A stretch of 58,946 nucleotides of DNA, counting the filler, from Dugesia japonica (Eukaryota), in assembly GCA_001938525.1 (NCBI GenBank). It is 5 parts of 5 records of this genome, joined end to end, with 100 filler letters (N's around TTAATTAATTAA, not from the genome) between each part and the next. Parts side by side here need not be neighbours in the genome. Positions count along the whole stretch, not along the records: positions 1 to 19,233 come from MQRL01611244.1; 4 more parts are not named here. One strand, 5' to 3'. Within the stretch, counting starts at the first letter, position 1. Each line of letters starts with the position of its first letter. Of the stretch, positions 1-21,494 are shown in pieces. Both the position numbers and the translations under genes were made by a program. The notes under the pieces were generated by a model. That model was not told the DNA's origin, made no database searches, and was given only the letters and a program-made list of their open reading frames with translations.

Positions 1-530
1 GCAATTTCATTGAACACTGCACACATGATAAAACAAGTTCTTTACCAAACAAGGTAATGAAAAATCGATAAATGCTTTACCAAAAATGATTTATGCATAC
101 AACCATTCTGAGCATAGACGTATTGGAAGATGAGGAAAGAAACCAGTTGATGTTATGGATGATGATGATTATACACAGTATTTCATAAATAAAAACCAAA
201 ATATAAAATTGGACAACATGTACAGATTTCTCGAATTAGTACTACACCATTCGTCAAAAACTTTGATAATAATTGGAGTGATGAAGTCTTTCAAATCTCA
301 GAAATCAACACGAGACAGACCCCAGCCATGTATGTAATACATGATGAAGATGGTATTATTATTCAAGGCAAATGTTATGAGCAGAAATCGCCAAATGTGG
401 CCAAAAAACCAAGTATATATTGAATCAAATCAATTCTCAAAACCAAAGGTCAAGGACAATACAAANNNNNNNTAGTTGAATGGCACGGGTATTCAAAATC
501 TACGTGGATTCAAGCATCTCAAATCCAATA
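1..530 (+). pseudogene. Polinton/Maverick-type integrase C-terminal region with chromo-like tail (degenerate)
   Basis: Frameshifted translation gives YAYNHSEHRRIG..PVDV, then NNWSDEVFQI..PAMYVIHDEDG..IQGKCYEQ and LVEWHGYSKSTWI. This matches the Polinton integrase pattern YNxxxH.SI...P.DV / NWSxE.F.I / G.FYExE / LVKW.GY...WI. Contains stops and frameshifts. Confidence 0.75.
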
Positions 531-607
531 ATGAGTTTCTATATGGTTTTGTTTAGTAATAGTTGTTCTAGAACTCGAACTGATAATAAAGTGAGCAAGT
601 ATTTAGT

Positions 608-860
608 TTCATTTAAAATAAAAGCTTCAATCAAAATTTTTTTAATATTGTTTTTTTAGATTAACTCGATATTTCAATATAAAAAGTAAATTCCTGACGA
701 AGAAAATGTCGAAATATCGAATCAAAAAATTTATTATCTCAAAAAAACAATGTAAAAACTTTTCCTTGAAGCTTTTATTTTAAATGAATTTTAAAAAACC
801 ATCAATGGTTACGTCCAACAATTTTTCTAGCAATAATTGCAATTGATAAAAAGTATTCAG
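608..860. mobile_element. Penelope-like element terminal (pseudo-LTR) fragment in inverted arrangement
   Basis: TTCATTTAAAATAAAAGCTTCAA (608-630) and its reverse complement (766-788) flank a hammerhead motif. The same family recurs at ~3408-3496, 23270-23355, 35789-35880, 38402-38478, 39510-39637 and 56320-56425. Confidence 0.6.
690..722 (+). ncRNA. Minimal type I hammerhead ribozyme (stem II mutated)
   Basis: attc-CTGACGA-a-gaa aat gtc-GAAA-ta-TC-gaat. Stem I attc/gaat pairs, the CUGANGA and GAAA core is present, and helix III is the palindromic AUAU. Confidence 0.6.
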
Positions 861-2279
861 TTGACTATGAGAATTCCATCAACTTAAAAGATTACCAGTG
901 GGAAGTTGCTATGACCAAATTTGTATTCAATTATTGTCCACAGACTATACAAAAAGTTTCGAAAATTGAATTTAAAATAAGAGAGGTGAAGGAAAATGAG
1001 AATCGATTTCAATTAAGTATTGTAGATGTTATGTTGCAACTTAATAATACCGTCCCTCTCAATAAATATAATTTGCATTTATTGTCCGAAGAAAAGAAAG
1101 TAATATTGAAAACATATTGTCAAGTAGAAATGGAGTTTAATTCAATATCCGATGCTAAAACTTTTGGATTTAATTTAATCAATACCAAAAATAAAAGGCC
1201 GTTATTTTCAGATAATATTCTTCAACCGTTTTATTACATGTTTTCCATGACATATTCTATGGGTAGTTTATCAAAATCTGCCCAAACAACTAATGAGTAC
1301 TTATAGCGCAGGCGTCATCATCTGATGTAGGTTGATGGAGATTGTAAATTCGATCCAAAACGAAAAATCTCAACAACCTACAAGCAATTCCTATTGATGC
1401 ATTGTTTTATGTTAATGATGATAAAAAAGGAAAGAAAATCCATACTCTCAACCATTTTTCCTGAGTCTTCGAATTAGTAATTATCCACACCATACATTAC
1501 ATAACATGTAGTATTTTGTCGTAGTTTTCGATCAAATCCATTTATTCAACTAACTTATTTGATTTTTTATTAATATAACCGCTAGATGAATTTGGAATCC
1601 TCATCGGATTATCAATATCAGAACTCGAATTCATAACAAGATTTATTAAAACAAAATCTATACATATAAATTTGTTTTTTCCAAACAAATTTAAAATTTT
1701 ATATTCAAAACAGAAAACATCAAATATCAGTATTTGCAAAACATTTTAAAATTTATCTGTCAAATTTTAAAAATACCTTTTATATATTTTATTTTATTTT
1801 AATTTATCCACAATTTATTAAATTTCAAATTTAAAAATACATTCTATATATTTTATCTTACTTGCTTATTTAAATATTTAACAAACTGATTTCAATAAAT
1901 TCTGCCTCAAAATACAAAAAATTGAATCTGCTTTTAAAATCTTCCTTTCAATAACTATTGTTAACTAATTCCCTGCGCAATACGCTTTGAAATTTCGTGC
2001 TCGTTGGGAACAAAATTTCGATTTTACTGCACTAAATGCGAAATATCACTTCCTTCTGCATAAAAGGTGCTCGTATGCACTATGTATCGAATGTAAAAGG
2101 TTGTGTAGAGCAGGAAAAAATTTAAAAACACATCGTGAATTAACACGCTTAGAGCGCGTATATACGTTTTTAGCAGCGAAAGGAATTTCAGAATGTCAAA
2201 AAAATCCATCAATCAGTATAAAATAAATAATTAAAATAATCAATAATTTTTAATTAAAAGTATCGAAAAAATCGAGATA

Positions 2280-2800
2280 CCAAAACAATCTAAAAGATAT
2301 TTTCAATCATTACTGTATAATCACAATTTTTGGACAAATTTTGTTCCAGAAATTGAACAGATCTCTATTTATTCAGGAAATCGGTTATTTACTTGCCAAA
2401 TTCGTATTTCTCTCGAAAGTTATGTAAAGAATCTATTTTTAAACTTGTAAGAATACATTATTGAAATTTGTTTTCCGACATTTCATATGATGCGTTTGAA
2501 TCAATTTTTGAATTGAAACAATTTTAGATACGATTAAACTATTGCTCTCAAACTTTACAAATGCGTTGTAAACAATTTTATCTCTTATTTTGTCTGTTGC
2601 ATCGTGCTTCAAGTACTTTTCTAAAATAATGTCGTTAGTGTTTCAGTGTTTGTAAAATTTCACGCCATACTTAAGAAGACCATTCAATCTTTAGTGGTAA
2701 TTTTTTCAAATGTTCCTTACATCAATTGTTTTTATCAGACCTATATCAAGTGGTCGCAGTAATACAGTCGCATTTTAGGTTCAACAAACTGACATTTAAA
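2280..2800 (-). mobile_element. pogo/Tigger DDE transposase remnant
   Basis: The minus strand reads TVLLRPLDIGLIKT, similar to the TSxLQPLDxGII motif of DDE_1 transposases. Heavily decayed, so boundaries are approximate. Confidence 0.45.
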
Positions 2801-3461
2801 GTTTATTTGAGTCCTTATTTAAGTCAAGTAAATAATTTTCTCTTAAGCCTACAAAGCACTTGTAAATAAATCTCAGCCATAAATATTTACTGCTGCAATA
2901 TTCAGTTTCAATTATTTTAAATAGAAATTATTAATACATCTCAGATTTTTAGATTTTTCAATAAATAGTAGAAAGTTTTGTCAACAAAACAAAATTGCAA
3001 TTCTTTCCTTTTCTATTTTACGCCTATATAACAAGGGTTAGCAACCTTTTGCTAACAATTTGTCGATACATGGTTCGAAATTATTTGACGTATCAACAAT
3101 ATGCATATTTTTAAACCACTCAAATCAATTTACCTGTTATATCGTTTATATTGCAGAGGTCAACAACCTTCAAACATAATCAAATTATTAATATTTAAAA
3201 TTTAAAACATAGAACTTGTCATTGATAATCGCTTGGCGTGCTGTGAGTTGCCAACCTCTGTTCTGGAGTTATCTTATTCAATAAAACGTTTTCGCGGGAA
3301 TTTTTGTGCTTAAATTCAATTTTTTAGTAAATGTATTTTTCATCTTTTTGCTTATCAATTGTTTATATGTTTGATAAATCTATAGATCTTGCTTCCCGAA
3401 AATAATTCATTTGAAATAAAACCTTCAATCAAAATCTTGTTTTTTTTTGGTATTTGATAAC

Positions 3462-3496
3462 AATTTGATATTTCGACTTTGCCTTCTTTAGGAATT
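3462..3496 (-). ncRNA. Degenerate minimal hammerhead ribozyme
   Basis: Minus strand aattc-CTAAAGA-a-ggc aaa gtc-GAAA-ta-TC-aaatt. The core G is mutated (CTGA>CTAA), so it is probably inactive. Confidence 0.45.
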
Positions 3497-3659
3497 GACT
3501 TTTTTTGCGAGTAAAAAAATAAACTAAATTTAAAATAAATTTAAAATCTAAATTATGTCTGTCTTTAAATCATTCAAACCAACCATTTGAAGCTTTCAAA
3601 TTAAGAAGATTAAGTTTAGAAGCAATCATATAATCAATTGATTTTATGACATGCAATTA

Positions 3660-4198
3660 ATTATAATATTTCTCTAGCGGACCCTTTGGAATAATTCAAA
3701 TATTGTTCTATTCATTTCTCTATGCTATTAAAATTTTATTACAATTTTCCACACTTAGCAATATAAAAACTAAAAATCGTGAACGATTAACAAATGTAGA
3801 AGAAGAAAAGCGTGTGGCTATTTCACACATAAGACCTGAAATTGAAGAAATTTGCAAATCATCAATCTCCATAATCCCATTAAACTCATTAAAGTCATTT
3901 ACGTATATAAATTTAATTTAAAAAACCCTTACTTTTATGTATTATGTAACAACGTGATTTTCAATAAATTCGATAAAAAAAGAAAAGTTAATTGTTCTTT
4001 ATTTCAGAATTTAATTCTAAGTTTCTACATTAAAAGTATTAAAATTGCACTTCAAATGTTATCTTTTTAAAAGCTTTCCGCTGAGAGAAGAGATACACCC
4101 TTCCAAACCATTCACTATAATGCTAAGCATATTGTGTTCCGCCAAAATCTTTGAAACTATAAATTGTTCCAGTTCTACTAAAAGATTAAGAACCACTG
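3660..4198 (+). mobile_element. hAT (Buster/Charlie-type) transposon 3' fragment
   Basis: FSTLSNIKTKNRERLTNVEEEKRVAISHIRPEIEEICK resembles the Buster-type hATC C-terminus. The fragment ends in TTAAGAACCACTG, the reverse complement of a CAGTGGTTCTTAA-type TIR. Confidence 0.7.
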
Positions 4199-5041
4199 CT
4201 ATAGAGTTTGTGATAGTAGAGTATTATTGGTGGAATGAATAAATAATCATGTTGTTGCATTTGTATAAACTGATACAAAATTCAGTTTTTCCATCGAAAA
4301 AATTCTCGAAATGGTGTCTTTGTCTCTGTTCTGTGCCTTTTCTAAGTTTCTTACTGAACACATCTTTATTATAAATTTCCTTTGATATTAAAATTTCTCA
4401 TGTATGCAATTTTATGTATTACATGTATTAAATACGCCGCGATAAGCATGCCGAATAAACACTTAAGTAAACCGAAGAAATCCCATTACCGGGCACCGGT
4501 TAGCAGAACTTCAATTGTTATGCTATGATCAATAAGTGAAGGTATTTCCCAACGCGACCTAACCAACAATCAAGTGAATCAGGTAATTTGAATTAAGAAT
4601 CTGTTAGCTGATTTTGAGATACCCTTTGTCTATTTAATGATGAAAGTTCTTCAAAGGCAGATACTTCTAAGAGAGGTTGAAAGAACCTATACGAATTGCC
4701 TCAAATACGCAAGAACCCAGATGGGAAGTGGAGGACTCTTTCTTCCGCTGTAAATGCATAAGGTTGTCTCTAAACAAACTCAAGCCAGGCGCAGTTGACA
4801 CTACTCACGTAATAAGTACTAACGAGTGCTGCTTAACTTTAAAATGCCACTATAAAGAAATAATTATTATTTTATAATTTTAGGCAATAGAATATGATCA
4901 AATTCCATTTTAAAATGTAATCAGTTCTATTTCAATTATAATTATCTTACTAAGCATGGGTTATAGTAGAGAAATAAATAATTACTAAAAATATTAATTG
5001 TGATTTGGAAAATAAATTACCAATTAAAGATTTATTTAACA

Positions 5042-5054
5042 TGGTGGCAGCGGT
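5042..5054 (+). promoter_or_regulatory. Primer binding site (tRNA-Leu type)
   Basis: TGGTGGCAGCGGT directly follows the LTR-terminal CA and is complementary to the 3' end (ACCGCTGCCA-CCA) of eukaryotic tRNA-Leu(AAG/TAG). Confidence 0.75.
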
Positions 5055-5490
5055 AAATAACGATTCTATTAGAGAGAGGTTATTGCCGAATGTGTTCTGC
5101 AGGGGATATGATATTGAAAAATTCATCAAGCAATGTGAACTTTATTTTGAAGCTAAAAACATCATCCTCTTGTTTGTGATATGAAGAATATGTAGAGTTT
5201 GAAAATAATTGAAGGTTTTCAGGCTCGTTTATGTATGGCATTTGAGAAAAAAAAGATGTTATCAAAGATTTCCAAAATTTGATTAACTACATGCGTGAAA
5301 TTGAAGAAATTCAAGTTTATTTTAAAAATGTAAAAGATTTAGTAAAAAGATTATTTACAAATAAAGACTTTACTGATGAAACATGGTAACAAAGATGATA
5401 GTATATTGTTCAGATAACAAAAAAGTTGAAGAAGAAGTGACTTTGCGGAAACGAGAGAATATAAAGAAATTGAAGAAACAATGACCTTAG

Positions 5491-5895
5491 TATTAGGTTT
5501 TCACATATGAAATATCCGATTTTAGAACTCGTTTTTTAAACTAATATATTTTTATTTAATATTTAACATTTAGAACTTATTTATATATTATTTTGAAGGT
5601 GAAANNNNNNNNNNNNNNNNNNNNNNNNNNNNNNNNNNNNNNNNNNNNNNNNNNNNNNNNNNNNNNNNNNNNNNNNNNNNNNTAAAAAATACGGAAATGC
5701 GAACATTATTTTTATATGAATGGAAATTAAAGCATAACCCAACAGAAGCTGCCCGAATTTGCATTTGGAGAGGGTTCAGCTAATAAAAGAACTCTTCGGA
5801 GATGGTTCGACAACTTTCAAAAGGGTGATTTAACCCGGGTCAATATGGAAAGGGGGCGCCCCAGGGTTGTCATTAGCAACGACAATGTAAAACGT
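5491..5895 (+). mobile_element. mariner 5' fragment nested in Gypsy gag
   Basis: TA+TTAGGTTTTCACATATGAAA TIR-like start, then EMRTLFLYEWKLKHNPTEAARI..FGEGSANKRTLRRWFDNFQKGDF..RGRP (Mos1-type HTH domains and GRP motif). Confidence 0.8.
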
Positions 5896-8800
5896 GAATA
5901 TAATAGATCTAATAAAGAAAAACAGAGATCAAGTTTATGTAGTTAGAAATTACACAAGAGTTACAAGTCGAAATAATCAGAAACCTGTAATTCATACAGT
6001 TAATATACATGTGGATCAAAGAAAAGAAAATCAAAATATCGAATGTAGGTTATGTCGTAAGATCGGTCATACTAAAGCTAATTGTCCGACAAAAAAGTGG
6101 TAGAGTGCAGAAGTTGTCATAAAACAAGACATATAAGTCGAGATTGTCCAAACAAAAAACCAACAAAATGTTTTGGTTGTGAAAAGGTTGGCCATATTAG
6201 AAGGTNNNNNNNNNNNNNNNNNNNNNNNNNNNNNNNNNNNNNNNGACATAGAGCAGAAGAGTGCTACACAAATTTGAAAATGAAAAGAACAAGTGGAAAC
6301 ATTTATGGATATTACGATGGATATGAGGAAATATATGAAAGTAATTCCGAAAGGCAGTATCCAAAAGGCAGGGTTCCACCAGTAGAGTAGTTGGTTGGAG
6401 CCATCCATTGTTGAATCAAGTGAGTCGAAAAGTTGGATGATATCGAAAAAGTTACAGAAAAAGTAAACAGGTTCTTACAGAGCGAAATTTGGGTATGATA
6501 GAAAAGTAAAATGGGTTAAAACAATTGAAGCAGAAAAGAAAATAAATATGTCGTTCTTTAAATTGCAAGGCAGACAAAGTGTTACGATATCAATTCAAAG
6601 AAAAAAAGTTGAATGCTTATTAGATATAGAGGCTAGAATTAACGTTATGAGTTTGAGTTGTTTTAATAAATTACGAGAAGTACATTTAAAAATGAGTGAT
6701 GAAAGATTTCATTGTGCAAATAATAGTACACAAGAAATTGTTGGAAAAGTTAGAATTGGAGGGATAAATGATGAAGTTTGCAAAGAGATTACTTTCTTAA
6801 TTGCTGAAAGAGTGACACCAGATCTGATAGAAGAATAGATATGCAGAGAATTTTTAGATACCAGTTTATGCAGAAGGTTGATAGCAAAACGAATAAAAAA
6901 GTCAAAAATTACATTTGCAATATTGAAACGAAATTTGGGAGACAAATTAAAAAGGAACAGCGATTGACAAGAGCCTTAAACACTTTAAAGATTAAAGACG
7001 ATCAACGGATTTTAAAAAAATTGGAAGTAAAGAAGATGCTTTTATGGCAGATAAATGGGATGTAGNACGCACACATCTAACAAGACACAAAATAATCACA
7101 AGAGGTGAACCAATCAATGTAAAACCGTACAGGCAACTAATGACTTTAGAATCTAAAATTGAAGAAGCTTTCCAAAACCTTTTCGAGAATAATATTATCT
7201 CCAATGTATTTGTTGCGAAGAACTTGTGGAGCCAAATATAGAAGATAGTTTGTAGTTGTGAAATTCGTCAAAAGACTAAAAACCGCTACTAACGAGAAGA
7301 CAAAGAGATTAGAAGCTATAAATTTGTTTGAAGTCATATTCACAGATATATGTGGGCTAATGGAAGAAACAAGTATACAAAAAAATACATTCTTGGAATA
7401 ATCGACCAGTATAGTAAATATTTGTTTCTTTTACCATTGCCTAGACAAGACAAGGAAACAATACGAAAAGCTATTTTTGAAAAGTGGATATTGAGATTTG
7501 GATGTCCAAGAGAGATAAGAGTAGATTGTGAAAAAGCTTTTGAATCCAGAGTTATGGGAGAGTTTACAATGAAGCTAGATATTAAACTTTGCTTTTCGAG
7601 TCATTATCATCATAATGCAAACGGACAAATTGAAAGACAATTCAAGATTTGATTAATGCAACACTTCAGGAAAGAATGACAAAAAATTAGGCAGATCTTT
7701 TACCGGAAATAGAATTTACACTAAACGCAACAAAGTAGAAGGCGGCTGGGAACAGCCTAGCTGAGATCTTATTTGGAAAAAAAATTAGCAGAGAAAAATG
7801 GTATGAATCAGACGTTTCAGATAGAACTAAAGAAAACACTTCGAACGTGATTACTAAAAGAGTATTCAAAGTGGGTGATTTTGTACTCATCAAGATAAAA
7901 ACAAGAAATAAAAGTCAACACAGATTTGAAGGACCTTATAGAATAACTGAGAAGATTCATGAAAGTTGGTTTGCAGTACAAGGAGAAAATGGACAGCGAT
8001 TGGAAAGAAATATGGAAAAACTCAGAAATTAGAGTATTAAAAAAAATAATTAATGTTTAATAATTTTAGCCAATAGAATATGATCAAATTCCATTTTAAA
8101 ATGTAATCAGTTCTATTTCAATTATAATTATCTTACTATGCATTTGTTGTAGTAGAGAAATAAATAAAGTCTAAAAATAATAATTGTGATTTGGAAAAGG
8201 AATTACCAATAGAAGATTTACCTAACAGCCACTATTTAAGTTTCAAATTTTAAACAGTGATAATTTTTAAAAAGGTGTTTTTATGATTTCCATTATAGTA
8301 AAGACTATTAAAATTTTGTTAAATGTTTCTCAAAATGTGAGGTTATAACTTCCACTTCTTTCTATAAATTCTCATTTCTTTGTACAAATTTTATTGAAAC
8401 TTATGTTTTCTGAGTTAATTTTCTTCAGTATATTGTTTGATGTTTATTATTTTAAAGCTCTTATTGCGATAAAATTTTAATTGTTTACCTTAACATCAAA
8501 TAAACATCCGCCTAAACCAAAACTGACCCAATTAAAATTTATACAATTAATTATCAATAAATTTAATACATAAATAAAATAATTTTTTTATAATATTTAA
8601 AATTTTTTTAAAAATTTATAACCAAATTAAGAGAGCAGCACTTTTTATACTAAACATTTACTTTTTATTAGTATTAAAAAGTGAATAACTGATTACAAAT
8701 CAATTTGATAGGTTGTTTCTAGTTCTTAGTTTTTTCAAAGCTTATTTGTTATGTTTTATGATTTCATGTGAATTTTTTTCCAGCAATTAACAATTTAGTA

Positions 8801-9226
8801 TTGACTGTGTATATGTTTCAATTTATTATTTTTTAAAAACTAATTCTCATTATTTTTAATTGTTTATTTTAATTTCAAATTTAACAGTTGTTAACATATG
8901 GTCATGTATATTTTTTTATTTGATGTAAAATTCGCAGAATTGAAAGATTGAATCGAAATTTTTATTTAAACTTGTAAATAATTTTTACAAAAATATTGCA
9001 CCTTTAAAAATATAATTCTTTCATATTTAAATAATTTTTAAATTTCGTTCGAAATGAAAATTAATTATAAAAAACAAATAATTTTGCACAATGCCAAATT
9101 TGTGTAAAATAAAATTACAAAAATATATAAAAATCATGCATTAACATTTCTATCATTTAATTACTTATTTTAATAATACTTTCTTAATTCTAGAAATTGA
9201 TATTAGAATAAGAAAGTAATAATTTA

Positions 9227-9405
9227 TGTTTGGGTTACACCTGAGTTAATTGAAGATAGTCGTGGCTGGGGAAAAACAGCCCTCAGGGGAACCCTTTCAA
9301 GAATTTAACCTGACGCCCCTGGGTCAGGTGTTCAGTATATGGTGGTTGACCTCTCTCTTAATGGGAGGTGCGCGCCCATAGGCCTTTTATTTGGGTTCAC
9401 TATTT
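9227..9405 (+). ncRNA. Conserved multi-stem terminal structure of the cargo element (copy 1)
   Basis: Stems GGGTT..CCTGAG/CTCAGG..AACCC, CCTGAC/GTCAGG, and TATGG/CCATA enclosing ACCTC/GAGGT. Conserved with compensatory changes in copy 2. Strand inferred from G-U pairs only. Confidence 0.5.
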
Positions 9406-9478
9406 TCCGTAAAGTTACACATAAAATTCAAACCAAAGATACTCGAAAACATTTATTAGTATAATATTTATAACTCGT

Positions 9479-9822
9479 CTAGGACGCCAGGGTCATCATC
9501 TCGATCATCAACAGTTCGAGAGGTATTCTTTCCCGGAGAAGTAAAATATCGTTAACCAGTTTATTTTCTCGGTCATGGCTGAACCAGATAATTTCCGCAA
9601 AGGACTCAACCTGTTTCTTCCAGGCTCGCTCCTGCAAGTGAGAGGTTTCGGCTTCCTTTAAAAGCGACACACTTTTTCTTATAACGAATCACCTTACTGT
9701 TGGCGGTGGCCANCTTTGCCTNCCATCGACGTTTTGCCAGTCGATATAGGTCTCAAGTGAGCTCTATGTCCTCACTGGTGTCTCTCAATTTTTTCGTGGG
9801 AGCGAATTCAAAGAGGAATGCA
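9479..9822 (-). pseudogene. Orphan ORF-C, copy 1 (helical/coiled-coil-like, disrupted)
   Basis: APTKKLRDTSE..T*DLYRLAKRRW..KVIRYKKK..EAETSHLQER..HDRENKLVNDI..PLE aligns with copy 2 (17307-17665). One stop and one frameshift. AG acceptor at 9823-9824; AATAAA at 9452-9457. Confidence 0.6.
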
Positions 9823-9992
9823 CTAAACGTTTATAATTATAATCAATAGAATACACTATGCTTAGAAAATACATCCTCATATTAATGTGGAATAGAAGTT
9901 TCCGTCAGACAATGCACATTGAAATGAAGAAAAATAACATAAGAGAGTCACTTATTTATTTTTTAAATACACAAACAACAAAAAAATTTTTA

Positions 9993-10340
9993 TTATGGAT
10001 TCAAAGTAATACCAACATTAGGAGCGGTGTTCTCGACATCGCTAACACAGAACGGCTCTCTCACACCCCAGAGTAAATTGGAGATAAAAGCTTGTACCAC
10101 TGAGGGAGGAGCGGGAGGTTGGTAATTAAATGCCGTAGTATGTGTGCGTACGGGTCCGTTCCATTTTTGGAAACGTACCCTCTCGCCGAAGTTCTGAATG
10201 CGAGCTACCATCGCCTCCACGGGGGGTAAATTAGACCTATCCACTAAAATACCAGCATCTCTATTATGCAGATTATAGTGGCGTCGGAAAATCACCCTGC
10301 GAGTTCTTCTATCTATTACTTGCTCCCAGATAGATTCCAT
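9993..10340 (-). CDS. Orphan ORF-B, copy 1 (115 aa, Arg-rich N-terminus), intact
   Basis: 46/54 N-terminal residues are identical to 17912-18190, with many synonymous differences. Acceptor-like TTAG lies 2 nt before the ATG, and the stop overlaps AATAAA. Confidence 0.8.
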   Translation of the reverse strand: MESIWEQVIDRRTRRVIFRRHYNLHNRDAGILVDRSNLPPVEAMVARIQNFGERVRFQKWNGPVRTHTTAFNYQPPAPPSVVQAFISNLLWGVREPFCVSDVENTAPNVGITLNP

Positions 10341-10496
10341 TTCTAAGTAAAGAGTGATAATAATTAGTACTAACGAAATTCATAGAAATCAGCATTATGA
10401 TATCAAAAAAAAATTTATATAAGTAGTTATTCTAATATAAAAAACGTCGAAAAGGTTTTATATATAATTTATTTTAATGATAGTAATGAACAATGA

Positions 10497-10679
10497 TCAG
10501 CTCTCAACTAAGTCTACTCTTCCCGGTAAGGGGAACATCTCGGTAAAACAACAAAGGTCTGTCTCATCAGGATGCTCGATTCTCCCTTTAGTTAATAGAT
10601 GAGCTATTGGTTGTCTTAATCGGGGAGTTTGGCGTTGTTGTTTTATCCATCGAAGGGTACGACGCAACTCTGCTGGCAT
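10497..10679 (-). CDS. Orphan ORF-A, copy 1 (60 aa), intact
   Basis: Same length as 18357-18539 and 27/60 identical without gaps (RLRQxIxHxL, ExPDETDLxCFxExFPLP). TTAG lies 3 nt before the ATG; AATAAA at 10468-10473. Confidence 0.75.
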   Translation of the reverse strand: MPAELRRTLRWIKQQRQTPRLRQPIAHLLTKGRIEHPDETDLCCFTEMFPLPGRVDLVES

Positions 10680-12945
10680 GAACTAAGAAATTAAACCATT
10701 AATCGCAGTTATTAACCCATGATTTAATCCCCTACAAAGAATAGCTGCTACTGTCTGTTATTATTAATATNNNNNNNNNNNNNNNNNNNNNNNNNNNNNN
10801 NNNNNNNNNNNNNNNNNNNNNNNNCATAATAACCTTATTAGGAAAAATAATAATAGTTATCACACCAATAACAATGGTTTTAATAGTAATAATAATATAT
10901 TTGATTATAATAATGATAATCCTAAACCGTACAACGAGTAATTATCAAACTTTTACTAAAATGATGGTGATGATAATCTTCAGACTGATGCTAATATTAG
11001 ACTAAAATTATACTAATAAATGCGGTAATAATACCTTTCACTAATCTGATGAGAAAAGTAGTCCAGTAATGCTAAGGCAATAATAACAGGTACTCCTTTT
11101 ATTAATAACAATCACTATAATGATAGTAGTAATACTAAACTTAATAATTCTAATAATAATAATACTAATAATAATAGTAATAATAACATTAATGATAATA
11201 ACAATAATTATATTGGTATCATCTTTTGCTAAAGTTATCAAAATTGTGAGGGATGATGAATTTTCGTCTTTTCCCTTGTAACAAAAAATCATACTTTTTT
11301 AGTGGAGTAAATTTTAATAAATTAGACAAAATTAATTTTTTAAATGATCGCGGAGTGGAGTTGCCTAGCACCACAAAAAACAATGTAGTGGCTAGTATTA
11401 CACACAAGAATTGAATGATAGTAGGTGTGTATGCAAAAGATGAATTATTTTTCTATCTAATCGATTGATTTCAATCGGATTGCTATGGCGAAATTATCCA
11501 CTACGGCAACTCAAGTCGCTATAATGAGTGTCTGATTGTTTATATCTATAGGGAATTTGGGGGAATGACTCAGGCTCATAGTCGGATTAAATTTACTAAG
11601 TCCTTCAATTTTGTAGATCCTGCGATCGAGAATATGATACATAAATAAATTGATTTGACTAAAAATTAAAAACCTCATTTCATTGATAATAAAATATTTT
11701 CATATTAAAATAATAATTAGAGTTAAAATTCCATATCATTAAGCTTTAATTTTGTATTAATTCACTATAACATAACAGAACACTTACTATAAAATTTTCG
11801 ATAAGATTTCTGCAACGGTTGCTACCAATAAAAGGNNNAATGAACAATTTTTTGGTAATTGATAACGAAAGTCCCAACTTCTGCTGTTTTATTAAAATTG
11901 AAATCAGCTCAAGATTTAATGAATAGAATTACTTTGATGCGCGATAACTGATCACGTTGATTTCCAATTGTTTTTATCGTAGTAAAATTCTGCCGAGAGT
12001 TTTCCTTTTTGAGAAATAACGAATATGCGGTTTTGACGTTTGGATTGTTTATTAATTTTAAGAGAGATTTAGTAGTGTTTTTTGTGTGTGTTTCTGCTAA
12101 TTTCATGATTCCTTATATATGACTTTTCCTTGCACCCCAACTTCTTTCATATTCGTTGGTTATCTTTAACTAGAATTTTCGACTTCCTATTGGTTCTAGT
12201 GCCAATTTTCTAAAGAATATTTGGAGTTTTAGCGTTCCAATTGGCGGTTATTTTTAAAACCTCATGTGACCGATTGTGCTTTGTCTTATTTTTATTTTCA
12301 GGTTCCTTATTGGCTCAATCTTGAAATCCCTGCAGCAACCTTCTGGATGGTGGTAAGATTTTCTTCTTAACAAATTCTAATGCTTCTTACTATTTTCTTT
12401 CTGGATTTTTTTACCCGAACTCTCTCTGATTTTCCTGAGCAAAGTTATTCGTGTAAAACGGATTTTTGANNNNNNNNNNNNNNNNNNNNNNNNNNNNNNN
12501 NNNNNNNNNNNTGGTAATTAATTATTTTCCCATAATGATTTTCTTGACTTTTTTTATTAATTTAATAATTCTTTTTAATTCTCAATATTGATGTATGCTA
12601 GTTTAATTACGCCCGGTTCTTCGTATCCATCTCCAATTTTATTTTATTCTTTTCTAATGGTTATTTTCATTATATCCTACCCAGATCTTAATTGCTTCTC
12701 CTTTTGCATTTCATTATTGGTAAATATAATGGCCCTACTGTTCTTCTTTGCTGATTTGGGTTTTTGGCCTTATTTTCCTTTTTTAACGGGTGTTTCACCC
12801 CAACATTTATAAAAAAAATAATTCCGCAAGAACACTATTTGAAGAAGTGAGAGCTTTTAAAATATTTTAATTGATCGAAAACTTGATTATTAAAAATTTT
12901 TATAATTATTTGTGAAGTAATTTTAATTAAATATAGTAATAATAT

Positions 12946-14060
12946 TGTTAGATTCCAAAAAGAGATAAAATCTTACTCCCAAGATTTATCTGATTTAACA
13001 ACTTTATCAACATTAACTGTAGTAATAAAAATATATGGAAAAAGAAATAAGCATAAAAAATATATTTAAATCACAAAATGATACTGTAACAAATATATAT
13101 AGCTTTTTTGAAATCAGTTATGCAATCATGTCTGAGCAATAAAATCATGCACACATTCAAACAGCCAACTACGCATTTACCTATTATCACATACATATGT
13201 CAATTTGAAAGGTAAATATGAAAATATTATATTATTCTTAGTCATATCTCACATTCCCCTCTTTTAAAGTGTTTTAACCATTCAATATTTCTTATTATTT
13301 TACCATTAATATGTTTAATTTAAAACTCCTATCACGTATTTTCTCTATAATTATTGCTGGTCCTTCATATCTGTTTTCATTTTTATGTAGACTTTCTATT
13401 TTAGTTAAAAATTCGTCACCAATATTAAATTTTTTACGTGTATTATTCTTTTCTAAGTTTTTGAAATTTTCATAGTTATTTAAATTGTTTATTATTTTTT
13501 ACGCTTTAGATTTCTTTCATTTACATTGTTTTTATCATTCCTAACTATCCATTCTTTGTGTATATTTTCCCCAAAAACTAATTCAGATTGAGATACATTC
13601 GTTGTTCTCTGAATTGTGGTGTTCAACATAAATTCTATTTCTGATAAAATAATGGCCCAGTCCTGCTTTTTCTTATCCTGTAAACTAATATGATGTCTTT
13701 ATCTTATTGTCTTTTAATTATTCAACTACTACTATGATGATATGGACTAGAGTATTGGATTTCACAATTAAATTCCTTGGCTAATTGTTGGAACAGATTT
13801 GATTCAAATGATTTTCCATGATCTGTATGTATTATTCTCGGTGCACCATATTTCAAAATCCAACTATTTTTAATATTTTCATCATGATGTGCAACTGCAT
13901 TGAGAGATATAAATCCAATGAATTTATCAATTATAGCTAAAATGTATTGTTTTTCATATAAAGTTTTCTTTAAACTACCACAAAAATCAATATGAATGAT
14001 TTCAAAGATGTCATCAGCTGGATTTATTTGTTTTTATTTAAAAAATCTTCCTAATGATGC
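12946..14060 (-). mobile_element. Ty3/Gypsy 3' fragment: integrase, polypurine tract and 3' LTR
   Basis: Minus strand IHIDFCG..YILAIIDKF..WILKYGAPRIIHTDHGKSFES..SSPYHH..RYEGPAII. PPT AAAAGAGGGGAA (13254-13265) is followed by TGTGAG (LTR start 13253). The LTR probably ends ..TAACA at 12946. Confidence 0.8.
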
Positions 14061-15104
14061 AAGTTGAGTGAATTGTTTACTAATTTTTTAATGATCATAA
14101 AAAGATGAAAATTTTTTATTTGGATCATGAATTAAGAATATGTTGAAATTGGTTGAAATAATTTCAAAATTTGATTGGAAAATGTCAAAATGTGCTGAAA
14201 TAATGTAGAAACACCTGTAATAAGAAAAATAATTTGATTGTAGAGATTACTTGAGCTAGAAAGCTCTTATTCAAGTTAGGAAAGGTAAAAGGTATTATTA
14301 TATTATACTGATGTTTGCTAAGAAACTCTTATTATAGGCCTACGTATTTCAAACCGAGAAAATGGACCAGATTTATATTTTAAAAGACTGAAATTAATAA
14401 TTACTGATAGGCTAAGTAAAACTGTAGTCAGTAAATTTTTTATTAAAATATAAGTTGGCTACAAGTCAAATATCTTTTAGTCACTGCTATTTTACATGGC
14501 AGTTATTTTACATTAATTTCCAAAAAAATACGGCCAGTTTTTATTTAAAAATATTTATTATTCATAAATTAAAATAAAAATAATATGATAACAATTTTAA
14601 ATAATTAACGGGAATTTAAAAAAGTATTATTTTTCCATGATTTTTTGATTGGTTAAATAATAATAAAAACCTTTTAAATTAAGTATTTATTTTTACTTTA
14701 AATTAAATAACATCAAAAATAATACACCCAGTCATTGAATTAAATAAATTAATATTTGAACTTAATAATTATAATAATTAAATTAATTTGATTGTGATAA
14801 AATGACGATCTATTTCATGAGAAATTTAATGCGTTAATGTCAAGTGGAATGAAACTGTGAAATTTACTATTATATTACACAAAATTGTGGATTTTGGACA
14901 AATCGTAAAATGCATTAAAACGGTAATTTCACTATTTTTCTTTAATATTTATATATTAAATTTAAATAAATAATTCAATTACTTTTTTTATTAATTTAAA
15001 AATTCTGTTGTTAGCGGTTTCTCTTGTAATTAAGAATATAATATATATCACAATGATAATAAGAATAGTAATAATGCATGTTAATGTCTTTATTATTCAT
15101 ATTT

Positions 15105-15660
15105 TTAATGGTGTTCCACCTTACCCACAGGTATTTGTCCGGTTGTCATTTAACTGGTTCTCTCGGTAGCGTCAGTGAGTCCTCTTGAAGGAGTGCAGGC
15201 GTCTACTTATTTACTTCGGATTCATTGTACTGACTGGAAGGATATATCAAAAAGCCATTTACCATTACCTGTGTGGCCTGTTTTAGATGAGTTTGTGACA
15301 GATTTTTATACGTACATCAGTAACTGTGAATAGTTAAAGGAATAACCGTGGAATGGTTTTGTCAATAACTTTTCCGTGGTTAGCCATAAATCGAGAATCT
15401 CTGTTGATATTATTTTCCTGGGAATATTTTATTGGAAGAATGCTAATATCTACACCCGAGTTGACCAGGAATTCATACTTGAGTTTCTATGTTAAAACTA
15501 GAATTGCAATTATTGATTTAATGGATTGAGATCCGTTGACTTTTCCTACTTTTCAAACCCTATTAATTTCTTTCCTAAAGCTTCTTTCACGTTTTAACTT
15601 TGATAATCGAATTTTCCATAATTCATTTTATTGAAAATTTCTTGCTTAGCATTTTTTCTA
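15105..15660 (-). mobile_element. Retroelement fragment with degenerate retropepsin
   Basis: Minus strand YEFLVNSGVDISILPIKIF resembles the FLVDSGADISILP active-site motif of Gypsy proteases. Flanks are decayed. Confidence 0.5.
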
Positions 15661-16602
15661 CCAATTCTGAATTTTTTTGTAATCAAATGAACTTAAAAAT
15701 TATTAATTTATTTCTTTCTGAATAATTTATTCATTAAATAATTAAAGTAATATAAAAGATAAAATTAATAAATCGAAAGTAATGAAATAAATTTCAAAAT
15801 ATTAACACGTTAAAATATTTAAAAATTTTAGCAAAAATGAGTTAAATATAAAANAATAAAATTAATGAAGTTAAAATAAGATTTTTAAAAAATTTTTTAT
15901 TTAAAAAATACTTTAAGTTAAAGTTGAGTCTCAAATTGTTTAGCTTATTTTATCTTTCACTATTTAGTAAATATTTCAATGATTTATAAACTTTTCAATT
16001 AAACGGTGAGCGTCATTGACTCACTTAACAGTGTGCATTCATTAAAATCAGTGAATTTAAACAAAATATATTTAAATTTTCAACATATTTTATTTGATGA
16101 TTTTCTGAATGTAATACTACAAAAATAGAATGTCACATTGTTTAAATGTTATTTTTGTTTTTACCAACAAATGTACGCGCTTTAAATTTCCTAAATTATC
16201 AAGTGATTCAATCTAGTTCATTTTAGATTACATTTTTTTTTAATAAATTAAAATATCAATTGTCAGTTATCTGCGATCAAAAAATCAATTATAATTTAAT
16301 TATTATTTTTTAGGGAGTAATATAGTGATTAGTATTAAATTAATTTTTGTATGTTACGTAAACATAAATTACGGTGGTAAATAAAATAAAAATACATACA
16401 AAATAAAGTATGTTATCAAAAATTAAAGTAATATTTTGGCGGTAGATCAGATCGCGATAAATAGGGGTTTCGCTGTACTGTCATTTTAAAAAGTCATTTT
16501 TCAATATTAAAGGAATTTTTAAAAAATAATGTACAAGAAATACATTTTTATAATGGAGATTATCAATTTTTACAAAAGAAACCTCTTTTTAATGTATATT
16601 AT

Positions 16603-16783
16603 TGTTGGGGTTCTATCTGAGTTTGGTCACAAATAACGTGACTGGGGAAAAAACAGCCCTCAGGAGACCCCTTCAAGAATTTAACCTAACGTCCGTAAGT
16701 TAGGCATTCAGTATGTGGTGGTTGACCTCTCGCTTAATGGGAGGTACGCGCCCATATACCTTTAAATTTGGGTTCACTATTTA
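16603..16783 (+). ncRNA. Conserved multi-stem terminal structure of the cargo element (copy 2)
   Basis: GGGG.TCT.TCTGAG/CTCAGG.AGA.CCCC, CCTAAC/GTTAGG (16685-16690/16699-16704), and GTATGTGG/CCATATAC enclosing ACCTC/GAGGT. Confidence 0.5.
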
Positions 16784-16841
16784 CCCTATTGTCATTACTA
16801 TATTAGATACTTTAACACGAAAAACTTTATTTCATATGAAA

Positions 16842-17224
16842 CTAGAGAAGACCTAATACACCAGGGTCTAGCCACTGGCCTGGATTCGTCTTTAAAAAGT
16901 TAAAAGAATCTATGTCATCCTCATCATTCCATTGTATCCACGTGGGATTACCCATCTGGCGGGAAAGGTCGGATATATACTGTTTAAGAAACTCAATCTT
17001 CCTCTGAAGCAATAATTTATTCTCATCTTCCAAAGTCTTGGTCTGTACCGCCAGGTCGTGCTGTTTTTTCACGATCTGATCGAGTTTCTTAATCAGACGA
17101 TCTCGCTGGTCCAGAAGCTTAATTAGTGCTCTATCGGTTTTCCGTTTTAACTGACGCTCTAAAAGCAGATGGCGCATTATGCGATGGCACCTTCGCAAGC
17201 TGCTCGGAAAATTAATGCGGGGTA
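16842..17224 (-). CDS. Orphan ORF-D (coiled-coil protein, ~110-127 aa), copy 2 only
   Basis: Open frame from an AG acceptor at 17225-17226 to the stop at 16842. Heptad-like Leu/Ile spacing (LIKLLDQRDRLIKKLDQIVKKQHDLAVQTKTLEDENKLLLQRKIEFLKQYISDL). AATAAA at 16826-16831. Confidence 0.6.
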
Positions 17225-17306
17225 CTAAAAGAAATACCTNNNNNNNNNNNNNNNNNNNNNNNNNNNNNNNNAAAAAAATTTAGTTATGGCCAAACATTTA
17301 TTGGTA

Positions 17307-17665
17307 TCAGGAACGTGGGGTCTGGCTACTATTGTCAACTATTAGTGGTTCAAGAGGCATGGCAGCCTTTAGGTTGTGAATGTCTTGTACCAATTTATTT
17401 TCACAGTCATGGTAGGACCGGATCATCTCTGTTAACGATTCGAGTTGAGCCTTACAGACTCTTTCTTGCTTATGGGACGCCTCGGCTTCTGACTTGAAGG
17501 TCATTTACTTCCACTTATAACGCCTAACCTTGGCATAAGCGTTTGCAACCTCAGCTTCCCAGCTTAACTTCGCTAACTTATACAGGTCCCAAGTTTCTAG
17601 GTTTCGTCACTGGAAGCTCTCACTTTCTTGGTTGGGGCCTGAACTCGGTTTAAAGATGATTGCAC
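17307..17665 (-). pseudogene. Orphan ORF-C, copy 2 (disrupted)
   Basis: APTKKVRASSD..ETWDLYKLAKLSWEAEVANAYAKVRRYKWK*MTFKSEAEASHKQER..HDCENKLVQDI..PLE. One frameshift, one stop, and the acceptor AG appears mutated to TG. Confidence 0.6.
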
Positions 17666-17843
17666 AAAAAGAAGTGAAAATTAATCAAATACTATGAGCT
17701 AAAATATCGATTTCTCACGACCGATGCTGTCGGGATACATTTACAAATCATCCCTAATAAAAAATGATTTTTACACAAAAAAAATATGATGTAATCAATC
17801 TGGAGACAACGAGATATTTTATTACAACTAAACAGATAAGTCC

Positions 17844-18190
17844 CTAATGTGAAGTCGATAAATCAGTCATGGGTGCGGCATTCTCCGAATCCTCGCTACC
17901 CGAGGGTTCTCTTACTCTCCAAAGCAGATTATTGATAAATGCCTGTATGGCGGGGGCTGGGCTGAAGGTTTATATTGAAATGTCGTAGCAAGGGCTCGAT
18001 CGGGACCCGTCCAACTTTGATGATTACGACGCTCCCCAAAATCCTGTATCCGGGCTACGATGGCTTCCACTGGGGGTAGATTTGACCTATCGGCCAAGAT
18101 GCCTGCGTCACGATTGTGGGGATGAAGATGACGTCTGAAGATCACTCGACGAGTTCGTCTGTCGATTACCCGCTTCCATATAGACTCCAT
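17844..18190 (-). CDS. Orphan ORF-B, copy 2 (one frameshift near 17950)
   Basis: Track ORF 17912-18190. Changing frame near the G run at ~17952-17956 restores IQAFINNLLWRVREPSGSEDSENAAP..SH*, matching copy 1 VQAFISNLLWGVREPFCVSDVENTAP. Confidence 0.75.
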
Positions 18191-18356
18191 TCTGCAATAG
18201 AAATTGATTTAAAAGCGCAAAGTATAGATAGATATTTATAAAATTTTAAATAAAGGANNNNNNNNNNNNNNNNNNNNNNNNNNNNNNNNNNNNNNNNNNN
18301 NNNNNNNAACAAGGCTATATTTTATTTCAATTATCAATGTTTTATCAAAGCACATG

Positions 18357-18539
18357 TTACTTCCGTTCGGTATGAGTTTTTTCTGGCAAGGGGAACAGCT
18401 CGACGAAACATTGTAGATCGGTTTCGTCGGGGTTCTCCACTAACTCCGGAAATAAGGAGTGGCCGATAAGCTGTCGGAGTCGCGTGCGTTTCCGCGGCTT
18501 CAAAATGATACTCAGGGCCTTCGTTAAATCACTTGGCAT
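18357..18539 (-). CDS. Orphan ORF-A, copy 2 (60 aa), intact
   Basis: Homologue of 10497-10679. TTAG lies 3 nt before the ATG; AATAAA at 18321-18326. Confidence 0.75.
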   Translation of the reverse strand: MPSDLTKALSIILKPRKRTRLRQLIGHSLFPELVENPDETDLQCFVELFPLPEKTHTERK

Positions 18540-19233
18540 ATTCTAAATAATAAGAAATTAACTCTAGGTCGACTCAACATAATTATGGGCCTATCGATTT
18601 AAAGCTAAGTTTAGTGAGGTAATTCAACGGACGGGTCACAATTTCTGAGAGGTAACCTCATTTAATACAAAAATTTAGCCCAGCGCAGGATTCAATGCCT
18701 GGCCTAGCAAAGTTGTGGACAGTGATAATCCCGTTATTAATTATCAATGACCTGTAGGGGTAGTGGTGCTAATCGTAATTCTCTCAACAGTAATGTCCCT
18801 TGATGAGAATTCACAAAGTTAACAATAACACCTAAATTAATCGGAACAATGATAAAGTTAGTAATAACATTAAATGTGAGTAGGATAGGGTTATTGATGA
18901 CTAATAAGTATAATAGTAATTATAATAATAAAAGTCGTCATAATAAGATAAGGTGATACTAATGAACCAAATCATTAACTTTAATGTGGAAATTGATAAT
19001 CCCCTGGGTCATATTTAGTAGAAATTGAGTCAGTATCGATGGCTTGGCCAACGTGGGGTGATAATCCTACTAAGTTAACCGAATATAAGGACCCCAATGT
19101 CCAGGATGCCTATGTGGTTGATAACTATTAATCGTGATGACAGACTTAGGATTCTTCCTTGTTTGTTAAGCCATAATAGAATTTCAAAGTTCGACATAAG
19201 GACATCACATTTTTATAGCAACACCCTAAAAAA

Positions 19234-19333
19234 NNNNNNNNNNNNNNNNNNNNNNNNNNNNNNNNNNNNNNNNNNNNTTAATTAATTAANNNNNNNNNNN
19301 NNNNNNNNNNNNNNNNNNNNNNNNNNNNNNNNN
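19234..19333. other. Artificial contig-joining spacer
   Basis: 44 N + TTAATTAATTAA + 44 N = 100 bp. The motif has stops in all six frames and is identical at four places. Confidence 0.95.
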
Positions 19334-20499: not shown

Positions 20500-21494
20500 A
20501 CTTTTTTGGCTTTTAATTTGAAAAATTATTTACTTTTAAGTAATAGTAATTTTCAAAAATTCCCAACAATGAAAACACATAAATTAACTGTAAATCGTTT
20601 TTTCTCATGCTCTGTAGTTTTAATTCGAACTTCGGTGGCCCCTTTAGTTTCAACAGTATACCCTAATAGCATATCAAATTGAATAGATACTTCATCAAAA
20701 TTTCCGATTTGATTATCGGATAAATCCTTCTTCAACTCAGTGATGGTGCTTCTAAACTTGACTACCAGAGATTCCCAATTTTTAAATAATTGTTACTTGG
20801 TGGTGGGCCGTCGAACACCAATATTCATGCGATTCATTAAATTGTCAGCCCATTGAGAGCTCGCTGCAAATTTTTCAATCCTCATCTCTGTGACATTTAT
20901 TTGTGCCTGTAATTGAATTTTTAAAACTGATACTTAAAGTTCTCGTTCACGTTGCATTGACGTCCCTTTCGTGTAATCGTGTTCCCAATTTCAGATATCT
21001 AGCATTACCACCACGCAAAGCTCTACGGTTTGGATGCATTGCTTTGATTACAAGCTCTTTTGCGATCCACCGTCGAATCACAGTTTCGTTAATATCATAT
21101 CGACGCGCAACTTCATGAATGTTTCCTAATTGACGAACTAGATCAATAATTTCTTTTATCTTTGCTAAACTGAAGGATCTTCTCTGTTTCTTTTGTAATA
21201 ATTTATTATCGTTGACCATCTTTAATCAAGGATTAAAAAATCACACAAATTATTGCAGAGAATATAAACAACAGAATAAAAATTATTATTATGAATATTT
21301 CAATTGGTTTTTAATGAAAGGTTAATGATTGTAAAATAATAATAAATTTTTTAAATCTTTTTGTAACATTTCTCTACAGTGAAAATTGATAAAAATGAGT
21401 TTTTGCTAATTTTATTCCGACCAAATACAGTGCATCTCATATGGAAATCGTGCAGCTAATACGTGCTGCAGATTATACTCGGGATTTTACTGTA
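20500..21494 (-). mobile_element. pogo-family DNA transposon (Brinker-type DBD + CENP-B HTH + start of DDE), 3'-truncated
   Basis: TA-CAGTAAAATCCCGAGTATAA TIR at 21494. RRSFSLAKIKEII..HEVARRYDINETVIRRW; FAASSQW...MNR...VRRPTT; IGNFDEVSIQFDM..TVETKGATEVRIKTTEHEKKRFTVNL. Confidence 0.85.

What the first reader, a model, noticed from the sequence alone, without database searches (positions are those of the whole stretch)
9227..19233. Gene-carrying LTR-like element family: integrase-type ends, no gag/pol, an array of orphan small proteins (two diverged copies)
Seen: copy 1 runs from TGTTTGGGT (9227) to ACCCCAACA (12805) with TTTA on both flanks. Copy 2 starts TGTTGGGGT (16603) and is cut by the contig end. 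Both carry minus-strand ORFs A, B and C in the same order, separated by AT-rich spacers that do not align, and I recognise no gag, RT, integrase or transposase in either. Established: TG..CA inverted ends with a 4-bp TSD are the footprint of Ty3/Gypsy-type integrases and of solo LTRs; LTR-encoded accessory genes are known in complex retroviruses (MMTV sag, HIV nef); giant Gypsy elements with multi-kb LTRs are known in planarians. Inference: this is a ~3.6-kb solo LTR, or a non-autonomous integrase-mobilised element, that carries its own set of accessory genes.
Basis: partly seen in the sequence, partly recalled or inferred. Interest (0 to 1): 0.9.

Follow-up and report, generated by a model that had tools for sequence, protein, structure and literature searches.

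The report
Giant LTR carrying small gene array
A 3.6-kb repeat present in many copies in an AT-rich animal genome has retrotransposon-type ends and carries three to four small, unnamed protein genes kept by selection; it is likely the left-behind terminal repeat (solo LTR) of a giant retrotransposon whose accessory genes sit inside the repeat itself, an arrangement I did not find described for this group.

Summary
Copy 1 (9227-12805, 3,579 bp) has 9-bp inverted TG..CA ends and TTTA on both flanks. Copy 2 starts at 16603 and stops at an assembly gap. Both carry minus-strand ORFs A, B, C in the same order; D is in copy 2 only. Between the copies synonymous sites are saturated (pS 0.79-0.92) while pN is 0.17-0.35, so the ORFs were selected as proteins; B and C are broken in single copies, as expected after insertion. 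Public contigs show roughly tens to hundreds of copies, and one other copy ends at the same base. All 7 ORF stops have AATAAA within 30 nt, and 4 of 4 A/B start codons have a YAG 1-3 nt upstream. The proteins match no family; ORF B has one remote relative. Best reading: solo LTRs of a giant Ty3/Gypsy element, with a spliced, separately polyadenylated gene array inside the LTR. Not shown: a parent element with gag-pol, the LTR's orientation, splicing or expression (two RNA runs almost blank), the host species, and absence from Repbase.

The parts
9223..9226 (+). Left target-site duplication TTTA
9227..12805 (-). Copy 1, complete element (3,579 bp incl. 101 N); strand given is that of the ORFs, LTR orientation inferred
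   Evidence: junction at the right end present in an X1 contig 12782-13101 with 0 differences
12806..12809 (+). Right target-site duplication TTTA
9227..9411 (.). Conserved non-coding terminal module of copy 1 (putative U5 end), with hairpins
   Evidence: 82% identical to 16603-16788; one compensatory pair in a 6-bp stem
9340..9351 (+). PBS-like motif TGGTGGTTGACC 113 nt inside the end; same at 16716-16727; meaning unknown
9479..9825 (-). ORF C, copy 1, broken (in-frame stop at 9755, frame switch near 9690-9655); start not identified
9993..10340 (-). ORF B, copy 1, 115 aa, intact, pI 10.2; TAG 2 nt before ATG; AATAAA overlapping the stop
10497..10679 (-). ORF A, copy 1, 60 aa, intact, basic N-terminal half; AATAAA 23 nt after stop
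10680..12090 (.). Variable, AAT-rich region; low family depth over 10995-11948; candidate GTAATT and GTAAGT donors near 11930 and 11786
12090..12805 (-). High-copy terminal module with TATA-like box at 12119 (putative U3 and promoter); 9-bp inverted end at 12797-12805
16603..19233 (-). Copy 2, a diverged subfamily, cut by an assembly gap at 19234
16603..16788 (.). Conserved terminal module of copy 2
   Evidence: summed contig depth 17,712 at 16692 in X1
16842..17177 (-). ORF D, copy 2 only, 111 aa from ATG (frame open from an acceptor-like site at 17225); predicted single 83-residue helix; AATAAA 10 nt after stop
17307..17660 (-). ORF C, copy 2, broken (in-frame stops at 17609 and 17507)
   Evidence: an X1 contig over 16962-17563 has 0 differences from the window
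17844..18190 (-). ORF B, copy 2, frame switch near 17954-17963
18357..18539 (-). ORF A, copy 2, 60 aa, intact, colinear with copy 1 (45% identity)

Best explanation
The two copies are members of one abundant interspersed repeat family with TG..CA ends, a 4-bp target duplication (copy 1) and three to four small genes kept by purifying selection; they are likely solo LTRs of two old subfamilies of a giant Ty3/Gypsy retrotransposon, whose accessory genes are predicted to be expressed from the LTR's own promoter as alternative last exons. Inferred mechanism: the parent integrates with its integrase (short inverted ends, 4-bp duplication); recombination between its two LTRs leaves one LTR between the duplications. 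Read on the minus strand, the first ~700 bp would be U3 with a TATA box at 12119, a leader would splice to an acceptor just before each ORF, each ORF would end at its own AATAAA, and the conserved 185-bp module would be the U5 end. Selection on the proteins acted while the subfamilies replicated; single inserted copies then decay. A and B are small and basic and would most plausibly be nucleic-acid-binding regulators of the element's own RNA; D, and probably C, are helical oligomerisation proteins. These functions are guesses from composition and predicted structure.
For: Ends and TSD. No long repeat, direct or inverted, shared by the two ends: best hit 18 nt, E 0.36. Multi-copy: single-copy contigs in run X1 have depth 10.8-12.7, element positions 209-17,712, about 18-180 times single copy on ORFs, 62-325 times at the right module and 1,500 times at the left module (rough upper bounds, the tool warns this is no copy number). 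One X1 contig of depth 13.8 leaves the element at exactly 12805 into another flank (table 5c). Purifying selection: pS 0.79-0.92 versus pN 0.17-0.35 in 5 of 5 blocks; third-position excess p = 3e-8, 0.002, 2e-4, 5e-4, 3e-5. ORF A is 60 aa and gap-free in both copies. AATAAA within -2 to +30 nt of 7 of 7 stops versus 16% of AT-rich 40-mers, p about 7e-4 if counted as four genes. YAG 1-3 nt before 4 of 4 A/B start codons. Giant Gypsy elements whose sizes leave room for LTRs of several kb are described in planarians (PMC6431247, section 7).
Against: No parent element, PBS or PPT junction was seen: none beside either copy in either orientation (expected for solo LTRs, so not discriminating) and none among the 24 loose-end rows shown of 2,879. 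Only 2 of 4 acceptors pass my strict pyrimidine cut-off (10/12; the others 8/12; background 24 of 1,818 ATGs), and ORF C has no conserved ATG. RNA runs X19 and X22 (about a quarter of each read) give summed depth of at most 2.2 and 0.6 on ORF bins, against 12-34 on the neighbouring Gypsy remnant in X19; none of the 15 joints shown of 125 has an RNA read. The terminal module folds better on the + strand (alifold -44 versus -25 kcal/mol; z -3.1 and -1.3 versus -1.0 and -0.9) and has a PBS-like motif there, which does not favour the minus orientation. Several polyA signals inside an LTR must be read through for a genomic RNA to be made. The dN/dS blocks were taken from tblastx hits, which favours amino-acid conservation. 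The host is not identified by any search.
Confidence: 0.58

Rival explanations
1. A non-autonomous element with no LTR-retrotransposon parent, moved as DNA by a Gypsy-like integrase or a Ginger1-type transposase supplied in trans, and carrying its own small genes.
For: Ginger1 elements also have TG..CA ends and 4-bp duplications (PMC6839031, passages). No gag-pol link seen. Per-gene polyA signals need no read-through in such an element.
Against: The inverted ends are only 9 bp, with weak likeness out to about 25 bp, far below the 100-150 bp of GingerRoot and the 40 bp or more recalled for Ginger1. The two ends are different conserved modules, as in an LTR.
Confidence: 0.2
2. A solo LTR as above but with another layout: the LTR reads on the + strand and the genes are antisense (like HTLV HBZ or plant Retand antisense ORFs), or the genes lie in a long U3 (like MMTV sag) with R-U5 confined to the last 200 bp.
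For: Better folding and a PBS-like motif on the + strand of the terminal module. Antisense accessory ORFs are common in Retand elements (PMC11963269, passages). ORFs in U3 have retroviral precedent (recalled).
Against: The only TATA-like match of my pattern on the minus strand of 10700-12805 is at 12119, upstream of and in sense with the ORFs; I see no TATA conserved in front of the terminal module (by eye). At 16692, 10 of 10 X19 first mates lie on + (4 starts), which would be minus-strand RNA if the library is stranded; this is weak because strandedness is unclear.
Confidence: 0.14
3. Copies 1 and 2 are the two LTRs of one very old element, and the protease-like and integrase fragments between them are its internal region.
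For: Same orientation; a protease-like fragment (15334-15486, no Pfam hit) and an rve fragment (13722-14033) lie between them on the same strand and in Gypsy order.
Against: Copy 1 has its own duplication on both flanks; the copies differ by selected, not neutral, change and in gene content; the integrase remnant has its own purine tract and 169-bp LTR (13253-13085); no PBS after copy 2 and no PPT before copy 1; 15129-15446 is at single-copy depth.
Confidence: 0.03
4. The ORFs are exons of a duplicated host gene and the ends are chance.
For: Acceptor-like sites and purifying selection are also properties of host exons.
Against: Tens to hundreds of copies, a sharp shared end, independent stops and frame switches in both copies, near-zero RNA depth in two oligo-dT runs.
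Confidence: 0.03

Closest known systems
Burro / GYPSM1 giant Gypsy elements of planarians (PMC6431247 section 7, read whole; Grohme 2018 and Lee 2026 not held)
   Same: Gypsy-type ends; internal region up to 25 kb and total over 30 kb imply LTRs of a few kb; thousands of copies; accessory ORFs are mentioned.
   Different: The review places the extra functions in the polyprotein or in an upstream accessory ORF and mentions no genes inside the LTR. I could not compare sequences, and the host of this window is inferred, not shown.
S. mediterranea repeats named GLT and GLT2 (PMC8532177 Table S1; first 400 letters of each probe seen)
   Same: By eye: GC-rich short reading frames separated by an AT-rich spacer (in GLT2 ending in a pyrimidine-AG site); GLT2 is silent in normal animals and de-silenced by smedwi-2 RNAi (passages).
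   Different: No computed homology; the one GLT2 primer tested has no match in the window at 3 mismatches; one short by-eye likeness to ORF A is not significant by a hand estimate. What the name GLT stands for is not given in what I read.
Complex retroviruses with LTR-borne or spliced accessory genes: MMTV sag, HIV nef, foamy bel, HTLV tax/rex/HBZ (recalled)
   Same: Small accessory proteins made from spliced RNAs, some encoded in the LTR.
   Different: One ORF per LTR, in U3, sharing the single polyA site in R. Here three to four ORFs in tandem, each with its own AATAAA, wholly inside the repeat.
Plant Ogre and Retand (Tat lineage) elements (PMC6431247; PMC11963269, passages)
   Same: LTRs of 1.9-6.5 kb (Ogre); extra ORFs of unknown function, some coiled-coil.
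   Different: The extra ORFs lie in the internal region (for Retand, antisense between pol and the 3' LTR), not in the LTR.
Ginger1 / GingerRoot integrase-type DNA transposons (PMC6839031, passages)
   Same: TG..CA ends; 4-bp duplication (Ginger1); can carry gene fragments (GingerRoot).
   Different: Long terminal inverted repeats and a transposase; both absent here.

Membership tests
Ty3/Gypsy solo LTR | Short inverted TG..CA ends | tested here: met
   8 of 9 bases within copy 1; 9 of 9 between copy 2 left and copy 1 right
Ty3/Gypsy solo LTR | 4-6 bp target-site duplication | tested here: met
   TTTA on both flanks of copy 1, chance 1.7-2.8%; 1 of 1 complete copy; copy 2 cut by a gap
Ty3/Gypsy solo LTR | Interspersed multi-copy family with a shared end | tested here: met
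   Depth 18-1,500 times single copy; one other contig leaves at 12805
Ty3/Gypsy solo LTR | No gag/pol and no PBS/PPT at the flanks | tested here: met
   the neighbouring short-LTR Gypsy shows its PBS at 5042 as a positive control
Ty3/Gypsy solo LTR | The same sequence occurs elsewhere as paired LTRs around PBS-gag-pol-PPT | not testable with these tools
   No genome held; only 24 of 2,879 loose ends shown
Ty3/Gypsy solo LTR | U3-R-U5 layout with start and polyA site | tested here: inconclusive
   TATA-like box at 12119; folding favours the other strand; no RNA starts or ends listed (table 6)
Burro / GYPSM1 | Sequence identity to a Burro LTR | not testable with these tools
   Papers with the descriptions not held; one BURRO1 primer has no match at 3 mismatches, which says little
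Burro / GYPSM1 | Host is a triclad planarian | tested here: inconclusive
   About 27% GC and AAT microsatellites; organism names coded; host Ig-domain exon found no relative
Ginger1-type non-autonomous DNA transposon | Long terminal inverted repeats | tested here: not met
   9 bp only
TRIM / LARD non-autonomous LTR element | Two LTRs as direct repeats at the ends | tested here: not met
   Best match between the two 500-bp ends 18 nt, E 0.36
LTR-borne spliced gene array (this report's mechanism) | Splicing into the acceptors and 3' ends at each AATAAA | tested here: inconclusive
   Signals present in DNA; RNA depth too low in 2 of 2 runs

The most novel reading that the evidence does not exclude
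A retrotransposon LTR that is itself a multi-gene transcription unit: one promoter, a variable leader and a gain-and-loss array of spliced, separately polyadenylated small genes, so that hundreds of solo LTRs are self-contained gene cassettes scattered through an animal genome, or, at the extreme, a parentless element that moves by a borrowed integrase and exists only to carry these genes.
Probability: 0.4. Interest if true: 0.82.

Novelty: new variant of a known kind. Interest (0 to 1): 0.64.

Why it matters
LTRs are treated as non-coding control regions; the known exceptions carry one ORF (recalled). An LTR with a modular array of three to four selected genes would be a retroviral-style regulatory programme in an invertebrate Gypsy element, and solo LTRs would keep these genes without gag-pol. 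If the host is a planarian, giant Gypsy elements are reported to be PIWI-silenced in a tissue-specific way (PMC8532177) and one is reported to support stem-cell survival (Lee 2026, seen only as cited in PMC13465017), so LTR-borne proteins are directly testable candidates in existing PIWI-knockdown RNA data. The repeat may already sit, unannotated, in a repeat library; the gene array and its selection signal are the new part.

Tried and rejected
No genome held. ORF B: no candidate in the 5.8-billion set at 63-202 aa; phmmer on 1.84 billion representatives gave 3 hits, of which P0001 and P0003 are repeat-driven and were dropped, and P0002 (94 aa, 37%, E 3.6e-8, one 512-bp ENA contig) was kept; the three-sequence profile found only P0002 among 63 candidates. 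No relative in metagenome or viral contigs (0 of 157 and 0 of 44 pattern hits confirmed); terminal motif absent from metagenome, viral and prokaryote contigs. ESM Atlas blank for B and D. PHROGs no hit below E 0.049 (7 proteins); PDB sequence search no convincing hit (best E 0.017 for B, none for D); Rfam nothing in the element; no tRNA in the window. ORF B model is low confidence (pLDDT 51) and its Foldseek search has no hit below E 0.1; ORF D is one long helix and was not fold-searched. No RNA holder listed for copy 2 (no evidence either way). Run X12 (organism B) holds the family, but I could not tell a related species from a mixed sample, so I make no cross-species claim. Structure covariation on two sequences is not significant (244 of 500 shuffles). 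Four look-ups in earlier findings returned nothing. Ten literature searches returned no paper that, in the listings and passages I saw, describes ORFs inside Gypsy LTRs of flatworms; the two key Burro papers, Repbase and one large PDF supplement were not readable.
Full report
Setting. The window is about 27% GC with many N gaps, AAT microsatellites, transposon fragments and a host gene with Ig domains. This fits an animal draft assembly; a planarian is my inference from composition and from the literature, and no call names the organism. No genome was held, so family-level evidence comes from one laying of public contigs and reads.

Observation. Copy 1 is 9227-12805 with TGTTTGGGT and ACCCCAACA ends and TTTA on both flanks; copy 2 begins TGTTGGGGT at 16603 and stops at a gap. 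A matching 4-mer has 1.7-2.8% chance here. The copies share a 185-bp left module at 82% and ORF B at 69% by blastn, and A, B, C by tblastn in the same order. The two ends of copy 1 share no long direct or inverted repeat, which excludes TRIM/LARD structure and a Ginger-length TIR.

The ORFs are real genes. In five ungapped blocks pS is 0.79-0.92 and pN 0.17-0.35; third positions differ more than first and second in all five (p 3e-8 to 0.002). The blocks came from tblastx hits, which biases toward this result, but ORF A is 60 aa from ATG to stop without a gap in both copies, and in the A and B blocks the minus frame used is the only minus frame without stops in both copies. B is intact in copy 1 and has a frame switch in copy 2; C is broken in both, at different places; D (111 aa, one predicted long helix) is only in copy 2. 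Selected divergence between copies plus private breaks is the usual pattern of genes that serve a mobile element and decay after insertion (established knowledge). The non-coding left module is far better kept than synonymous sites, so it is a constrained cis element.

Gene anatomy. All 7 ORF stops have AATAAA between -2 and +30 nt, against 16% of AT-rich 40-mers. All 4 A/B start codons have TAG or CAG 1-3 nt upstream; 2 of 4 pass a strict pyrimidine cut-off met by 24 of 1,818 ATGs in the window. A TATA-like box lies at 12119 on the ORF strand, with candidate donors downstream. I read this as one promoter and several alternative last exons. It is not shown: X19 and X22 have almost no reads on the ORFs, none of the 15 joints shown of 125 has RNA support, and no RNA start or end is listed. 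Silence in ordinary samples would be expected for a PIWI-silenced element (PMC8532177, passages), but it is no support. Trans-splicing to a spliced leader would use the same acceptors and is not excluded.

Family. 17 of 24 listed runs hold part of copy 2, 6 of them half or more of its words, from 7 studies; some may be the window's own source. In X1, six single-copy contigs have depth 10.8-12.7, while summed depth is 209-2,117 on copy 1 ORFs, 642-911 on copy 2 ORFs, 736-3,833 in the right module and 17,712 in the left module, that is about 18-180, 54-77, 62-325 and 1,500 times single copy. These are rough upper bounds. The middle of copy 1 (10995-11948) has low depth, so it is subfamily-specific. 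One contig leaves the element at exactly 12805 into a different flank, an independent sign of the right end; the copy 1 junction itself is present without differences.

What the proteins are. No Pfam, PHROGs, PDB, Atlas or fold match. ORF B has one remote full-length relative, P0002 (37%, E 3.6e-8), with no name or context. A and B have 7 Lys/Arg in their first 30 residues and B has pI 10.2, which suggests nucleic-acid binding; this is a guess.

Surroundings. The DNA between the copies is not their internal region: the integrase remnant has its own purine tract and 169-bp LTR (13253-13085), and there is no PBS or PPT beside either copy. A second short-LTR Gypsy at 4854-8227 shows a PBS directly after its LTR, so such signals are recognisable in this genome.

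Open point on orientation. The left module folds better on the + strand and carries a PBS-like motif 113 nt inside. The TATA box and the ORFs point the other way. Only full elements can settle it.

Literature seen. PMC6431247: passages and section 7 whole. PMC8532177: passages and Table S1 (cells cut at 400 letters; the PDF supplement could not be read). PMC11410931: passages and a supplement search with no hit (one scanned file not searched). PMC6839031, PMC11963269, PMC13465017, PMC13238120, PMC10954484, bioRxiv 10.1101/2025.09.12.675808: passages only. Grohme 2018, Lee 2026 and Repbase were not available and may describe these LTRs; retroviral precedents and Ginger1 TIR lengths are recalled. 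The GLT and GLT2 probes look alike in anatomy by eye only.

Verdict. A real, abundant mobile element family with a selected array of orphan genes. Most likely giant solo LTRs (0.58; 0.72 with other LTR layouts), otherwise a parentless integrase-moved element (0.2). New variant of a known kind; interest 0.64, held down by the missing parent, the missing RNA evidence and the chance that the repeat is already catalogued.

Noticed in passing
window 4854-8227 (+): Decayed short-LTR Gypsy element: 188-bp LTRs 90% alike, PBS-like TGGTGGCAGCGG at 5042, protease-like and rve fragments (rve E 1.3e-11); the stretch where RT should lie looks deleted by eye.
   Followed up: partly
window 13085-14250 (-): 3' end of another short-LTR Gypsy: rve fragment, purine tract, 169-bp LTR; very high contig depth, and RNA reads at depth 12-34 in X19.
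   Followed up: partly
window 8958-9134: A 177-bp imperfect palindrome (69%), MITE-like, about 90 bp left of copy 1.
   Followed up: no
window 9340-9351 and 16716-16727 (+): PBS-like motif inside the conserved terminal module, within a hairpin predicted in both copies; could not be matched to a host tRNA.
   Followed up: partly
window 11909-12112 (-): A 66-codon AT-rich frame starting 16 nt after the TATA-like box; no homologue tested beyond Pfam (no hit below E 0.02).
   Followed up: partly
window 18627-18944: Very high contig depth in X1 and X12 inside copy 2's variable region; probably low-complexity AAT matches, possibly a further repeat.
   Followed up: no
window 42354-48432 (-): Host gene exons with Ig domains (Pfam Ig_3) and an LDL-receptor-like cysteine motif by eye; no relative found for one exon.
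   Followed up: partly
window 20947-21219 (-) and 54180-54551 (+): DNA transposon fragments: HTH of a transposase (E 5e-6) and a MULE domain (E 1e-5).
   Followed up: no
window 13200-13272 (+): Rfam mir-310 match below its gathering score (31.5 of 48 bits), on the neighbouring Gypsy LTR edge; probably chance.
   Followed up: no
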